This document shows, piece by piece, positions 31,001-37,000 of a stretch of DNA of 64,000 bases. The position numbers and the translations under genes were made by a program. Below the pieces are notes generated by a model. The model was not told the origin of the DNA. It saw nothing but the letters and a program-made list of their open reading frames with translations, and did no database searches. The DNA comes from the human T2T-CHM13v2.0 reference genome, Homo sapiens. Position 1 is the first letter of the stretch. The number at the start of each line of letters is the position of its first letter. Location: assembly GCF_009914755.1 (NCBI RefSeq), contig NC_060939.1; one strand, written 5' to 3'.

Positions 31001-34000
31001 GGGAAATTTATAAAATACAAAATAAAATTAATCTTTATGTGTGAAAAAACAAATTTCAACCTCACCAATTAAGCATAAATTAAAGCAACAGGGATAGGAC
31101 ATTTTTCACCCATTCAATTGAAAATATTTGAAAATGTGTTAACTCTTATTACTGTAACGAAGATGGCATAGTAATACACACTTGTATAAACTTGTTAATA
31201 ATGCAAATTGTAAGCTTTCTGAAGGGCAATTTGTAAATTCATATAAAAAAACATTAAAATATGCAAACCTGTTCCTCTAGTCATTTTGCTTCTGGGAGTT
31301 TATTCTAAGAAAATAATCAGAGACATGAAAAAAAATTATTTTAAAGGAAACTCAAACCAGCCTTATAAGGACAAATAATAGAAACAAATATGTCATAACA
31401 GAGTTAATTTTACATAAATTATAATTCTTCCATATAATTACAATGCACCTATTAAAAATTGGATTAAGAAAGTAAGAAAATGTTCAAGTAACATTAAGTG
31501 GAAAACTCTGGTTTTTAAAAGGTGTATCTGGAATGTGATCCCATTCTGTGCGTATACCTACATAATGTCAGGAAGACATTAGCTAAAATATTAACAGTAG
31601 TTATCTCGGGGTGGTGGAATCACAGTAAATTTTCTTATTTAGGTATTTTCCAAATGTTATACAATTAATAAGTTACTTTTAGAATCAGGAAAAGGTGAAA
31701 GCTACTTGTAAATATTGGCCACTTTTACCAAAAAAAAAAAAAATCACTAAGTAAAATAAATTTGAAAAGAATGTAAGTGTCTGTCTAAGGCAGGATCTGA
31801 GTTCCCTTGGCCAACATTGAGAACCAACTAGCTATTCTTCTCTTGCCTCTCAAAGATCAACATGCTGCTTAACTTTCAACTGGGAGAGAACTGCCCCTGC
31901 CCAGAGGAGATTCGGGAGGAGCTGTATGATTTCCATGAGGACCTTCTCCTTCACTGTGGTAAGCTGCCCAGAGAAAGGCTTTGTCCTTTTTTTACAAGAA
32001 GAGTCTGTTTTTGATTCCTTCATTAGAAAGCTAGTGGGAGGTTGGGAAGTTATTTTTGTATTTAAAATTGCAATACTGTCTTTCAAGACGTGACTATCCT
32101 AGCTACTTGTGTCAGAAAAGATACAGGAAGTAACCCTGACAGAATATATGACCAAAATTCCTTCTACCTAAAAGAGCCTGTGCTGAGATATAGAGAGGAA
32201 ACAGGGTTTCTAGCAAAAGAATGAAGACAACTGATCCTTATATAAACCTCACCTAATTTGCTTAAAGTTAGTTGGGACTCTCAGCTTCCAGGTGAGACAA
32301 GATTCTGATCTCTTTGCTTTTTAGCTATTAGGGGTGTGTGTGTGTGTGGGGGGGGGGTGGTGTGTGGGTGTGTGGGTGTGTGTGGTGTGTGTGTGTGTGT
32401 GTGTGTGTGTTTAGTAACTTCTGCCCTTAAGGCTTCTCAGCCAGCAATCTCTACTTGGATACATACCTACTGGTTTTAAGCAGCTCTCAGCATTTGTGTT
32501 GCTTGTACATGGGTAGGTTTAATAATATATGGGTAATTGACAAGCTTTTCATTTGAAATAACTCATTGTTAACTTCTTCTACAGATTCTAGGGCCACGTC
32601 CCCCAAACATTCTTCCAGAGGTTTCAACACTATAAGAGTGTATGTAATCCCCCTTACACTCTTTCAGAGGTTTTGGGGGTACAGATTCAAAACACATGTT
32701 TTAGGATTAAACTTACTTGTTGTTCTGATAAACAGGAAATCAATATTTTTTTTTCAAAAGCTATAAGATAGGTAACTATTCACGAGAATAGTATCTTTAG
32801 AAAGCCTGTAGTATCTTTAGAAAGTTCCAGAAGGATGGGAAGCAGTTTTTTAAATGTTCTTTCTGACACTATGATGGTTTCATGCACTGCTTTGGATTTT
32901 CACCCTGTTCTGTGGCTTGCTAGGGGTTCCTTTGGAAGAAGAGGAAGAGGAGGAGGAGGACACCTCCTGGACAGGAAAACTCTGTGCCTTGGTTTACAAA
33001 ATCAAAGGCCCACCCAAGCCAGAGAAGGAGCAGCCGACGGAGGAGGAGGAGAGATGCCCCAGTAAGTGACATTGCCTTTAAATGACAGTGTGCTCTTCTA
33101 AGACTTAATTAATGTAACTTTTTTTAAACAAATACTGTAAGATAGATAGGGGCTGCTTAACTTCAAAGAAAGCATCTGGGCAGTATGTTATAATTGCTGG
33201 TGGTTCAGTTACGTATTTTGGGTTCTGCCTTTCTTCTGATTGAAGAAACTTACTTTCAGACTGTCCTGAAACCTGAGATGGGTTGCTTGGTGTCTGTTCT
33301 TGCTGTCGTGTTCTACTTAGAGGTGCCTGTAAATACATGTCTGTTCTTCTTTTAGGTTTCCATAGTCTTCCTCTTTTAACCATTATTGTTTCTTAACGAT
33401 TATTGTTTCTGTCACTTCCCTTTGTGGTTCCTTAGCATTGAAAATTGCCCCAGAGAGAAAATAAAATAATAATAAAAGAGAGTTTGTGAAGGATATAGGA
33501 TATGAGTTTGGGGGGGTTGTTTTTGGATTTGGGGTATGATTTTTGAAAATGTAGCATCCTAGAAACTTTGACTTCCTATTTTTCAACAATGCCGAGCTTT
33601 GTCTAGATTTATCTCTCTAATCCTTATACTATAGATGACTCCTACCGTTTTGACCCATGATGAAACAAGATTATAACTTGTTCTGCAGGGCTGTTAGACT
33701 ATCTCTAGGACATGAAATTTCAAGAGGAAGATTGTCTTGTCTGAGTATTATATATAATCAGTCTACTCCTTGGTACAGATTCAGCAAATTTATCATTTGT
33801 TTAAAGAAGAAGGAATTTCTCAGGTTTAATATCGTTGCTTTTTATCTTGTTTCCTATTCCTATCCATCTTGGAACACGCTTTCAAATCGTAGACTAGAGC
33901 AATTGACTGTCAAGATAGGATCAGTTTGTCTGAAAACACTACTTTGGGGTTCATACATCTTACTGCCCTTACTGCCCTTTATATCGACCTTTCATCTTTG

Positions 34001-37000
34001 TCAGAATATCTCTGAAGGGAACAAATCTCACCATTTGTCATCGGAAGTATTGAAACCTCTGGAAGAGTGTATGGGGGACTTGGCAATGGCAACCCTTGAT
34101 AGGGTAGTTCCATCAGTCACTCTGGAAAGGGCGGGTCTTTTGTGAGGATGTGCCAGCAGCACTCTAAAGCCACAAAAACGTGAGTTTAGGCTCCCTTTGT
34201 GGTTACCGCCAAAGGAGAACTGAAAATAGGCTGAGTTACCCATATGTCTCCTATATCACCTGCTGAGAGTCTCTTTTGAAAGTGGTTGCTTCTTTCCCAC
34301 CTTCTTTTTCTTTTTTTTTTTTTTTTTTTTTTTTTTTCCTGAGACAGGGTCTTGCTCTGTCACCCAGGCTGGAGTGCAGTGGTGTGATCTCCACTCACTG
34401 CAACCTCCACCTCACGGTTCAAGCGATTCTCCTGCCTCAGCCTCCCAAATAGCTGGGATTACAGGCATGCGCCACCATGTCTGGCTAATTTTTGTATTTT
34501 TAGTAGAGACAGGGTTTCATCATGTTGGCCAGGTTGGTCTCGAACTTTTGCCCTCAAGCAGTCTGCCCTCCTCAGCCTCCCAAAGTGCTGGGATTACAGG
34601 CATGAGCCACCACAGCTGGCCCTTTCCCACCTTCTTTTTAACAGAGAGTTTGTCATGGCTGGCGGGGGGTGGGGTCCCACCAGGTGACCATTTCATGTGA
34701 GGTAAATGGAGTCAGTCAGATGAAGTCACTTGTCACCTGCCTCTGTGAAGCCTCCCCCTACATCTGTGAATGGTGTTCGGGCACCAAGGATTGCAGTCTG
34801 CAGCCCCGCTACCTCAGGCCTCAGGCACACAGACCACATTCTGTCTGTCTTGGCAAAACACGCACACCCGAGAGGCCAGCCCTGTATGAGACTGCGTGTC
34901 TTCACCTCATGCTTCTTCCCTTCCACAGGAGGAGTTATGAGAGGTTCACGTTTCGTGTCATAAGTACTCTATCTTGGGATCCCAGAAATAGACGAAATGG
35001 TTGAGGTGATCAGGCATGATTGGCTTCTCTGCTGAATGTTCCAGACATGATGAATCCCCTCACTCAAGCCTGGCATTTTAAAATAAATTCTAGAGAGTGG
35101 TTTAACAACCACCACCCCCATAAATTGTTTTTAATATGATCAGATGGAGACAAGGTTGCTGATTACAGAACCATATGCATTAAAGGGTCAAAATCCTTTA
35201 AATTATTGGTAATTTTGTTCATGCTATTGCGTATCTGATTTCTATTACCCTTGCATTTGATGAAATAATAAAAGTGTAGATAGTGTTAGAAACGTTATAC
35301 AATGAATTGGCAGTTTACTGAATACTTCCACACATATTCATTTACTGCTGTTAGTTTTCTACACTCCTCCATTGTATAGTTGGGGGAAGCAGGACTCAGA
35401 AGAATTAAGGGGTACTTGTTTATTCTTTCTACCCTTACCCGTTCCAGAAAAACGTCCGGGTGTCTGATTGTCACCAACCTAAGGTACGTAAAGTGAGTAA
35501 AGCTATGGCTTGAAGGCAGGTCTTCTGTCTCTTTGTATTGTGCTGTGCTTCTCCACTGTACCCTTGCCAAAGAACTTACCAGCATACATACCATGAGCTA
35601 CAAACACATTTGGAATGGCTTTTTAAAATCACTCTTTTTATCTTGCCTACTACATCTGTGAGATATCTCACTGTTTTGACTCAAAATCTGAACCCAACGG
35701 AATTCAATGTTTTAACATTTAAAAGTTCACCAAACCAAGGATCTGAATCATTTTCAGATAAGGTGGTGGTGGGCTCACCCCGCAGTCCCTCTGCTGTGAG
35801 CAGTTGATGTTGGCCAATGACCTGCAGAGAAGCCACAACTTTTCTAGGAAAGAGAGAGCAACAGTGTCCTGAAACTCACATTCTGAAATCTGCTAGCTGG
35901 CTCAATGTTGAAGGGATTTGCCTAAATTAACTCCAAGCCATATTGTTAATGAAAGCTGTTACAATATTATCAAAGGATCAAATGATAATGAACAAGTGAA
36001 AAAATCTAACAATAGTAGCCACTGTACTAAGTCACTTTTTTTTCATATCTCCATCCAGAAAATTCCCTAGAAAATGTTTTGCTTGTTCCTTCTGGCCAGT
36101 ACTTTTCCAACGCTGCAGTTTAAGCAGCATTTCCTTCAATGTAAATATATAGGCATTGAATTATTCTTCCAGAAGAGGCTGACCATCTATTTCTCCTAAA
36201 TTCTAAAATTAACAAAATAAAAACCATCTGTCAAATTTTACAGATTAAAATTCGGTAAATTCTTGATCTCTGCCATTTGTTGAATGCTTTCCCCATGGGA
36301 GAAGGAAGCTCCACGCTGGCATCTTATCTCTATGCTTAGAGGTCTTGAGATGACCCATTGCAATTCAGCTTTGGGTGGCATCGGTTAAGAACTGAGTTAT
36401 AGGTGAGCATGGCTGAGTCTTTCTGAAGGAGGTGAACATCCCTCTTCTGTCTTTAGCCCTGTGCTGTTTGCCACAGAATGTTACCTCTCGCAGAGATTAG
36501 GTGGCACTCTTGGCCTTGAATAGTGCCTGCTCTCCCCTGCCACTCTTCTCCTAATGAAGACCAGAACTGGAGGTGACCTTGAACCTGTCAAGCCCCAAAG
36601 TCCTTACGTATGTTACCTCTTGCCTATTCACTGAACAGCCTAGGAGCCCTAAACCAAAATTGTCTCCCAGCTAAATGCTGTAGCATGTTTAGTGCTGAGA
36701 AGAAGAAAACATCTATACGAAATAAGTCCTAGCCCCTCAACACAAATACGCACATGCAAAGTGAGATAACTTAGTAGTAAGTACATCTGCAGAGCTCAGG
36801 CAGTATTTCTAAGCCTCTTCTCTAAATTCTCTCCAAAGAGCCTCTCCCTAAACACACACACACACAAACACCTCCTCTGTGAAGTCTTTCAAACTCATTC
36901 TTTTTCCCTCTACCCCTTCCATATTGTGGAATTTCTAGTAGTGTATGTATGACTTTCCACGTTATGTGAGGTACTTGTATATGTGTTTGTTTTCCTCACC

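What the first reader, a model, noticed from the sequence alone, without database searches (positions are those of the whole stretch)
32593..34084. Long-range 39-nt RNA duplex that could loop out the in-frame 138-nt RYR3 exon
Seen: intronic 32593-32631 is complementary to 34046-34084 (35/39 Watson-Crick, plus one U·G wobble in the sense pre-mRNA). Neither arm looks like Alu/L1/MIR. The pair encloses exactly one exon (32924-33061), which is 138 nt and phase 1-1, so skipping it keeps the frame and removes the acidic [12 protein letters not shown]...EEEERCP segment. Established: paired complementary intronic regions can cause exon loop-out skipping or back-splicing. Inference: a structure-controlled RyR3 isoform lacking 46 aa, or a single-exon circRNA.
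Basis: partly seen in the sequence, partly recalled or inferred. Interest (0 to 1): 0.8.

Follow-up and report, generated by a model that had tools for sequence, protein, structure and literature searches.

The report
Unique inverted repeat flanking RYR3 exon
Two 39-base stretches on either side of one small RYR3 exon are near-perfect reverse complements found nowhere else in the human genome, so the RNA could fold and loop the exon out, but nothing available here shows that this changes splicing.

Summary
Window 32593-32631 and 34046-34084 pair at 35 of 39 Watson-Crick positions plus one U·G. They enclose only the 138-nt, phase 1-1 exon 32924-33061.

It is not chance: ungapped score 31 against a maximum of 20 in 200 shuffles. 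It is not a repeat family: genome-wide pattern searches find only these local copies.

Thermodynamic models predict a very stable stem: -62 kcal/mol, pair probability about 1 in a 1.9-kb fold, and still present in a 4.5-kb fold.

New anatomy: the left arm lies in a 91-nt patchwork block (32589-32679) bracketed by a 9-nt direct repeat. Of its 91 nt, 82 are pieces of the right-arm region in alternating orientation. I read this as a templated (template-switch) insertion.

Function is unproven. No skipped isoform or RYR3 circRNA turned up in print. The splice sites are average and the exon is purine-rich. It is far shorter than exons that circularised well in minigenes. A much stronger Alu pair also brackets it.

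Cross-species conservation and RNA-seq junctions could not be tested here. This is a new member of a known kind, of modest interest.

The parts
32593..32631 (+). Left arm L1 (upstream intron), reverse complement of the right arm
   Evidence: 35/39 complementary to 34046-34084; unique in the genome
34046..34084 (+). Right arm R (downstream intron); probable source sequence of the left copies
   Evidence: In the shared 26 nt, its reverse complement is 2 mismatches from L1 and 2 from L2, while L1 and L2 differ at 4
32648..32673 (+). Second, partial left copy L2 (alternative pairing partner for R)
   Evidence: 24/26 complementary to 34053-34078 (I4); duplexfold with flanks -49.9 kcal/mol; not used in the equilibrium fold, pair probability about 0
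32634..32644 (+). 11-nt piece identical to R in the same sense (34063-34073), lying between L1 and L2
   Evidence: exact match (row 635-645/1002-1012)
32589..32679 (+). 91-nt patchwork block. 82 nt are R-derived pieces in the order rc 39, + 11, rc 26, + 6. Proposed templated insertion
   Evidence: decomposition; local fold unremarkable (z = -1.1, 30 of 200 shuffles fold as well)
32580..32588 (+). First copy of the 9-nt direct repeat TACAGATTC bracketing the block
32680..32688 (+). Second copy of TACAGATTC, directly after the block; a third copy lies at 33774-33782
32924..33061 (+). 138-nt RYR3 coding exon inside the 1414-nt loop; phase 1-1; equals residues 1909-1953 of the RyR3 chain in PDB 9c1e
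30276..30852 (+). Two Alu-length repeats in the next intron upstream, inverted relative to the Alu at 34296-34624 (outer, stronger bracket)
   Evidence: 328 nt at 77% and 192 nt at 80%; duplexfold -438.6 and -263.6 kcal/mol, and 257 pairs in the 4.5-kb MFE
34296..34624 (-). Antisense Alu 212 nt downstream of R, partner of the upstream Alus
   Evidence: Rfam Metazoa_SRP matches on the minus strand at 34339-34485 and 34504-34620

Best explanation
This is a locus-specific short inverted duplication, not a transposon pair and not chance. The left arm belongs to a 91-nt patchwork block (32589-32679) that was most likely written into the upstream intron by a templated, template-switching replication or repair event. 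That event copied the 34046-34084 region 1.4 kb downstream, first as a 39-nt reverse complement and then as shorter pieces in alternating orientation. As a by-product, the RYR3 pre-mRNA can form a very stable 39-bp stem closing a 1.4-kb loop that holds the 138-nt exon, nested inside a still stronger Alu x Alu stem. Shown: the sequences, their uniqueness, the patchwork anatomy and the predicted thermodynamics. Inferred: the direction and mechanism of copying, and that the stem forms in cells. My best estimate is that its effect on RYR3 mRNA is small, at most low-level exon skipping, back-splicing or A-to-I editing, rather than a selected isoform switch.
For: Non-chance: E = 1.4e-8; 0 of 200 shuffles reach score 31, max 20. 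Non-repeat: only the local copies are found genome-wide. An 18-mer core with up to 2 mismatches gives 262 hits against 178 for the reversed control, so there is no family-sized excess. None of 48 other human loci (195,050 nt) holds a unique short high-identity inverted pair; the only short pair of at least 87% identity, in L057, is multi-copy. Patchwork: 82 of 91 nt between the two TACAGATTC copies are R-derived pieces in rc/+/rc/+ order. R is equidistant from L1 and L2 (2 mismatches each), and they share no derived change, as expected if R is the template. Stem: duplexfold -62.2 kcal/mol; net gain -39.5 kcal/mol over local folds, 32 L1-R pairs in the MFE, and pair probabilities about 0.97-1.0 over most of the arm; it persists in the 4.5-kb MFE. 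Small effect: splice sites are average (polypyrimidine 14/20, donor 7/9) and the exon has the highest purine content of the 15 exons, 0.66. The paralogous exons in RYR2 (144 nt) and RYR1 (147 nt) have no comparable unique stem: best E is 0.56 in RYR2, and RYR1 has only Alu-length pairs. Template switching as a source of reverse-complement copies and RNA hairpins is described in PMC5453318 (passages read) and PMC8794818 (search listing only).
Against: No outgroup genome was available, so neither the insertion nor its direction is demonstrated. The template-switch events catalogued in PMC5453318 are short-range (switch points within tens of bp), whereas here the template lies 1.4 kb away. The 9-nt bracketing repeat was noticed post hoc, and a third copy at 33774 clouds its reading as a target-site-like duplication. 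In the PCCR study, exons looped out by more stable structures have lower inclusion (PMC8052449 section 10), so a -62 kcal/mol stem could well have a real splicing effect. 30-40-nt inverted repeats sufficed for circularisation in minigenes (PMC4201285 abstract). Equilibrium folding ignores co-transcriptional kinetics, proteins and helicases.
Confidence: 0.55

Rival explanations
1. Selected long-range RNA structure that regulates inclusion of the 138-nt exon by loop-out skipping, giving a RyR3 lacking 46 residues.
For: The stem is far more stable than the strongest PCCR energy class (<= -30 kcal/mol; PMC8052449 section 6). Looped-out exons have lower inclusion, more so for stabler structures (section 10). 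Skipping keeps the frame. Two alternative left partners exist.
Against: No such variant appears in print (those mentioned in PMC13215552 are a 29-aa human variant, a 27-aa turkey deletion and a turkey frameshift variant). Splice sites are average and the exon is purine-rich. The stem removes only about 1.5 kb of the 26.8 kb separating the distal sites. Paralogues show no counterpart. The patchwork anatomy looks mutational. Conservation is untested.
Confidence: 0.12
2. Intronic complementary sequences that promote back-splicing of the exon into a 138-nt circRNA.
For: Geometry fits: the arms lie 292 nt and 984 nt from the splice sites that would be joined. 30-40-nt inverted repeats were sufficient in minigenes (PMC4201285 abstract). 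PCCRs are enriched outside circRNAs (PMC8052449).
Against: In the same minigene study, exons of 400 nt or less circularised poorly or not at all. 'circRYR3' occurs in 0 papers, and the two candidate papers I opened, from the RYR3 circRNA searches, describe no RYR3 circle. The outer Alu pair (-438.6 kcal/mol) would favour a two-exon 241-nt circle instead.
Confidence: 0.1
3. Two or three fragments of one ancient interspersed repeat family inserted in opposite orientations.
For: Most inverted pairs in the window and in the background loci are repeat pairs. Very old families can escape the word-based genome search used here.
Against: Independent copies of an old family would not be 90% alike over 39 nt with no similarity beyond. 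No further copy exists in 3.1 Gb at up to 3 mismatches. There is no excess of the 18-mer core. The arms are not in the hub's list of masked stretches of 100 nt or more.
Confidence: 0.07
4. Chance complementarity.
For: Many windows were screened by the first stage.
Against: E = 1.4e-8 locally. Scaled by my own arithmetic to every pair of sites within 5 kb in 3.1 Gb, this gives about 0.1 expected. 0 of 200 shuffles come near. A third copy and an 11-nt same-sense piece sit beside the left arm.
Confidence: 0.01

Closest known systems
[quoted passage not shown] 2021, PMC8052449; sections 6 and 10 read)
   Same: Intronic, non-repeat, nearly perfect complementary stretches less than 10 kb apart in one gene; this pair loops out an exon, and its energy lies far beyond the catalogue's strongest class.
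   Different: PCCRs are defined inside phastCons-conserved intronic regions. Conservation of these arms is unknown, and the patchwork anatomy suggests a lineage-specific insertion. RYR3 is not mentioned in the text or in the 3 readable supplements. The full tables were too large to open.
Intronic complementary sequences driving circRNA formation (Liang & Wilusz 2014, PMC4201285; abstract and passages read)
   Same: A short inverted repeat (about 30-40 nt) in the two introns flanking an exon, close to the splice sites to be joined.
   Different: The enclosed exon is 138 nt, well below the lengths that circularised in that study. No back-splice evidence was found. The arms are unique sequence rather than Alu.
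Template-switch mutations that create reverse-complement copies and RNA hairpins (Loytynoja & Goldman 2017, PMC5453318, passages read; Monttinen & Loytynoja 2022, PMC8794818, listing only)
   Same: A reverse-complement copy of nearby sequence, with alternating-orientation pieces, produces perfect stems in one step without selection.
   Different: Described events are short-range (tens of bp) and make local hairpins. Here the template is 1.4 kb away across an exon, more like the longer-range mechanisms (FoSTeS/MMBIR) named in that paper.
Inverted Alu pairs flanking exons
   Same: Both bracket the same exon. The Alu pair 30276-30852 / 34296-34624 coexists with, and encloses, the unique stem in the 4.5-kb MFE.
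   Different: The Alu pair is multi-copy, about 300 nt and 77-80% identical, and encloses two exons (103 + 138 = 241 nt, not a multiple of three).

Membership tests
PCCR (conserved long-range intronic base pairing) | At least 10 nt, hybridisation energy <= -15 kcal/mol, arms <= 10 kb apart in one gene | tested here: met
   39 nt, -62.2 kcal/mol (ViennaRNA duplexfold, not PrePH), 1414 nt apart, both in RYR3 introns
PCCR (conserved long-range intronic base pairing) | Both arms lie in phastCons-conserved intronic regions | not testable with these tools
   No vertebrate alignments or other mammalian genomes are held; the full PCCR tables were too large to read
PCCR (conserved long-range intronic base pairing) | Arms outside repeats and exons | tested here: met
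   Unique genome-wide; not in the hub's masked list; intronic
PCCR (conserved long-range intronic base pairing) | Compensatory substitutions across species | not testable with these tools
   No orthologous sequences available
circRNA-promoting intronic complementary sequences | Reverse-complementary match between the two introns flanking the circularised exon(s) | tested here: met
circRNA-promoting intronic complementary sequences | Observed back-splice junction | not testable with these tools
   No RNA-seq or circRNA database access; 0 papers hold 'circRYR3'
circRNA-promoting intronic complementary sequences | Exon long enough to circularise efficiently | tested here: not met
   138 nt, against poor or no circularisation at 400 nt or less in PMC4201285; an empirical tendency in one vector, not an absolute rule
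Interspersed-repeat (Alu/L1/MIR/DNA transposon) inverted pair | Arms belong to a multi-copy family | tested here: not met
   Only the 3 local copies in 3.1 Gb at up to 3 mismatches; no other place in DNA searches. Very old families below the search sensitivity are not excluded
Templated (template-switch) insertion | Inserted segment is a reverse-complement copy of nearby sequence, possibly with several switches | tested here: met
   82 of 91 nt are R-derived pieces in rc/+/rc/+ order
Templated (template-switch) insertion | Ancestral (outgroup) state lacks the insert | not testable with these tools
   No outgroup genome

The most novel reading that the evidence does not exclude
A lineage-specific templated insertion created, in one mutational step, a -62 kcal/mol long-range stem that now controls inclusion or circularisation of an ancient RyR exon, shared in phase and size class with RYR1 and RYR2. 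The result would be a primate-restricted RyR3 isoform lacking 46 residues. This would be a worked example of a splicing-regulatory RNA structure born by template switching over kilobase distance.
Probability: 0.08. Interest if true: 0.65.

Novelty: new member of a known kind. Interest (0 to 1): 0.3.

Why it matters
If the stem acts in cells, it would add a RyR3 isoform, or a circRNA, to a calcium-release channel whose splicing is little mapped in this region. It would also show how a single templated insertion can create a long-range splicing structure. If it does not act, which I think more likely, the locus is still a clean example of an extremely stable, unique, exon-bracketing duplex arising from mutation alone. 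That is a caution for catalogues that read complementarity as function.

Tried and rejected
- **Repeat origin:** whole-genome DNA and pattern searches found no family. Only 32328-32416, well outside the arms, matches other chromosomes.
- **Known RNA families:** the Rfam scan of 31000-36000 at E <= 1 gave nothing on the arms, only Alu/SRP-like matches at 34339-34620.
- **Local hairpin gene in the left block:** rejected; z = -1.1.
- **Wider inverted homology:** the outer pair 32527-32554 / 34218-34245 is 20/28 with E = 2, so not significant.
- **Paralogue test:** no unique flanking stem in RYR2 or RYR1.
- **Literature, splicing and circRNA:** RYR3 splicing, circRNA and candidate papers opened gave nothing about this exon.
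- **Literature, RNA structure:** RYR3 is absent from the text of the PCCR paper (PMC8052449), from its 3 readable supplements, and from the text of the RIC-seq papers (PMC10573301, PMC10691357). The large PCCR tables could not be opened, so absence from the catalogue is not established.
- **Jiang et al. 2003 (JBC):** the RyR3 splice variant paper is not held; what I know of it is recalled.
- **Empirical background:** A 60-kb one was granted, so the background is only 195 kb. Twenty-nine of the 48 loci had been fetched through an 18-mer resembling the arm core, so they are not strictly random.
- **Cross-species conservation:** no mammalian sequence is reachable with these tools.
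Full report
**1. Observation**

Window 32593-32631 is complementary to 34046-34084 at 35 of 39 positions. In the sense RNA there is one additional U·G (32610/34067) and three true mismatches. The arms are 1414 nt apart.

The only annotated exon between them is 32924-33061. It is 138 nt, enters and leaves in phase 1, and translates to [12 protein letters not shown]...EEEERCP. It matches residues 1909-1953 of the RyR3 chain in PDB 9c1e at 43 of 45 positions.

**2. Chance**

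BLAST gives E = 1.4e-8 for the left flank against the right flank. The best ungapped inverted score between the upstream intron and the first 3 kb of the downstream intron is 31. In 200 dinucleotide-preserving shuffles the mean is 13.4, sd 1.3 and maximum 20, so 0 of 200 reach the observed score.

Scaling the E-value to every pair of sites within 5 kb in 3.1 Gb is my own arithmetic. It gives about 0.1 expected genome-wide. Chance is excluded.

**3. Repeat origin**

- A 34-nt degenerate pattern covering both arms, with up to 3 mismatches, hits only the two arms in the whole T2T assembly; the reversed control hits 0.
- The 26-nt core hits three places, all local, against 1 control hit.
- An 18-mer core with up to 2 mismatches gives 262 hits against 178 for the reversed control, far from a family-sized excess.
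- DNA searches with 141, 396 and 624 nt around the arms find no other place for the arm segments. Only 32328-32416, elsewhere in the intron, has relatives on other chromosomes.
- Rfam has nothing on the arms.

As an empirical background I ran the same inverted self-BLAST on 48 other human loci, 195,050 nt in all. It gave 237 inverted pairs of at least 46.8 bits, almost all Alu-length. The only short pair (60 nt or less) of at least 87% identity, in L057, has a third copy and also hits another locus, so it is repeat-derived. Thus 0 of 48 loci hold a unique short pair like this one.

The sample is small. Twenty-nine of its loci had been fetched through an 18-mer resembling the arm core, so they are not strictly random.

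**4.

- **Second left copy.** L2 at 32648-32673 is 24/26 complementary to the right arm (I4). Between L1 and L2 lies an 11-nt piece identical to the right arm in the same sense (32634-32644 = 34063-34073).
- **Patchwork block.** The nonamer TACAGATTC occurs at 32580-32588 and 32680-32688 and brackets a 91-nt block. Of that block, 82 nt are pieces of the right-arm region in the order rc 39, + 11, rc 26, + 6.
- **Copy relationships.** Over the shared 26 nt, the reverse complement of R differs from L1 at 2 positions and from L2 at 2 others, while L1 and L2 differ at all 4. R therefore behaves as the common source.
- **Outer Alu pair.** The antisense Alu at 34296-34624, 212 nt beyond R, is inverted relative to the Alus at 30276-30608 and 30615-30852 (328 nt at 77% and 192 nt at 80%; Rfam SRP-like matches). 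That pair brackets this exon together with exon 31856-31958.

**5. Predicted RNA behaviour**

- duplexfold gives -62.2 kcal/mol in the sense RNA and -63.0 in the antisense.
- Cofolding 141 nt around L with 131 nt around R gains -39.5 kcal/mol over the two local folds.
- In a 1.9-kb fold (32400-34300), the MFE holds 32 L1-R pairs. Pair probabilities are about 0.97-1.0 along most of the arm, and L2-R has probability about 0.
- In a 4.5-kb MFE (30200-34700), the L1-R stem (32 pairs) sits nested inside the Alu x Alu stem (257 pairs; Alu duplex -438.6 kcal/mol).
- The left block on its own folds no better than shuffles (z = -1.1).

These are equilibrium models. They say nothing about kinetics, proteins or helicases.

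**6. What it most likely is**

The alternating-orientation patchwork, the bracketing direct repeat, the sharp edges of homology and genome-wide uniqueness all point the same way. I read the left block as a templated insertion written by template switching during replication or repair, with the right-arm region as template.

Template switching is described as a source of reverse-complement copies and of RNA hairpins (PMC5453318, passages read; PMC8794818, search listing only). The catalogued events are short-range, however, and here the template is 1.4 kb away.

Four differences in 39 nt suggest an age of tens of millions of years if the copies are neutral. That is my inference from recalled mutation rates, with a wide interval. 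The stem in the pre-mRNA would then be a by-product.

**7. Does it regulate splicing?**

*For:*
- In the PCCR study, exons looped out by complementary regions have lower inclusion, more so for stabler structures. The strongest class there is <= -30 kcal/mol (PMC8052449, sections 6 and 10).
- 30-40-nt inverted repeats were sufficient for circularisation in minigenes (PMC4201285 abstract).

*Against:*
- The exon's polypyrimidine tract (14/20; window range 12-18) and donor (7/9 matches to the consensus; range 6-8) are average. It is the most purine-rich of the 15 exons (0.66), with GAR repeats that I would expect, from general knowledge, to act as splicing enhancers.
- The stem shortens the 26.8-kb path between the distal splice sites by only about 1.5 kb.
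- Exons of 400 nt or less circularised poorly or not at all in the same minigene study.
- The Alu pair is a stronger and more conventional bracket.
- The paralogous exons, 144 nt in RYR2 and 147 nt in RYR1 and both phase 1-1, have no comparable unique stem.
- No paper among the searches describes skipping of this exon or a RYR3 circRNA. One paper mentions a 29-aa human RYR3 variant, a 27-aa turkey deletion and a turkey frameshift variant (PMC13215552 passage).
- RYR3 is absent from the text of the PCCR paper, from its 3 readable supplements, and from the text of the RIC-seq papers. The full PCCR tables could not be opened.

**8. Protein consequence if skipped**

The frame is kept. By my reading of the sequence, the junction codon would change and 46 residues net would be lost. 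These comprise two acidic runs around a short segment that aligns with RyR1 and RyR2.

I did not establish whether this segment is one of the named divergent regions. The RyR3 cryo-EM paper says only that DR1-DR3 are disordered and unseen (PMC11452665 passage).

**9. Verdict**

In detail: the pair is real, unique and non-random. The origin is best explained as a local templated insertion. Function in splicing is unproven and, on balance, unlikely to be large. The two decisive tests, outgroup sequence and junction reads, are outside these tools.

This is a new member of a known kind: an intronic complementary pair flanking an exon.

Noticed in passing
window 30276-30852 and 34296-34624: An inverted Alu pair brackets exons 31856-31958 and 32924-33061 together (241 nt, not a multiple of 3). 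Predicted duplex is -438.6 kcal/mol, a more conventional candidate for a two-exon circRNA than the unique stem.
   Followed up: partly
window 27443-27613 and 28172-28349: An inverted pair of 178 nt at 80% identity, 559 nt apart, in the intron before exon 31856. Neither arm is in the hub's list of masked stretches.
   Followed up: no
window 38842-38936, 43783-43873, 20533-20607, 18973-19031: Several unmasked stretches match each other in inverted orientation at 74-82% identity, suggesting an old interspersed repeat not in the masked list.
   Followed up: no
window 16666-17009 and 37474-37608: Alu-like stretches (70-84% identity to the window's masked Alus) that are absent from the hub's masked list.
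   Followed up: no
window 32677-32688 and 33771-33782: A 12-nt exact direct match, GGTACAGATTCA. All three TACAGATTC copies in the 64-kb window lie within 1.2 kb around the exon. Unexplained: either a target-site-like duplication or another templated piece.
   Followed up: partly
window 32790-32804 and 32810-32824: A 15-nt direct duplication (AGTATCTTTAGAAAG, period 20) in the upstream intron, about 100 nt before the 3' splice site (read).
   Followed up: no
window 33376-33410: A 17-nt tandem duplication, 2.1 copies at 94% identity, in the downstream intron inside the loop.
   Followed up: no
window 32328-32416: A short stretch of the upstream intron with relatives on seven other chromosomal places (78-96% identity), so an interspersed-repeat fragment. 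It does not overlap the arms.
   Followed up: no
L052+L053 (RYR2) joined coordinates 8501-8644; L054 (RYR1) 2478-2624: The paralogous exons are 144 nt and 147 nt, both phase 1-1. This small in-frame exon therefore predates the split of the three RyR genes, and its length varies in whole codons.
   Followed up: partly
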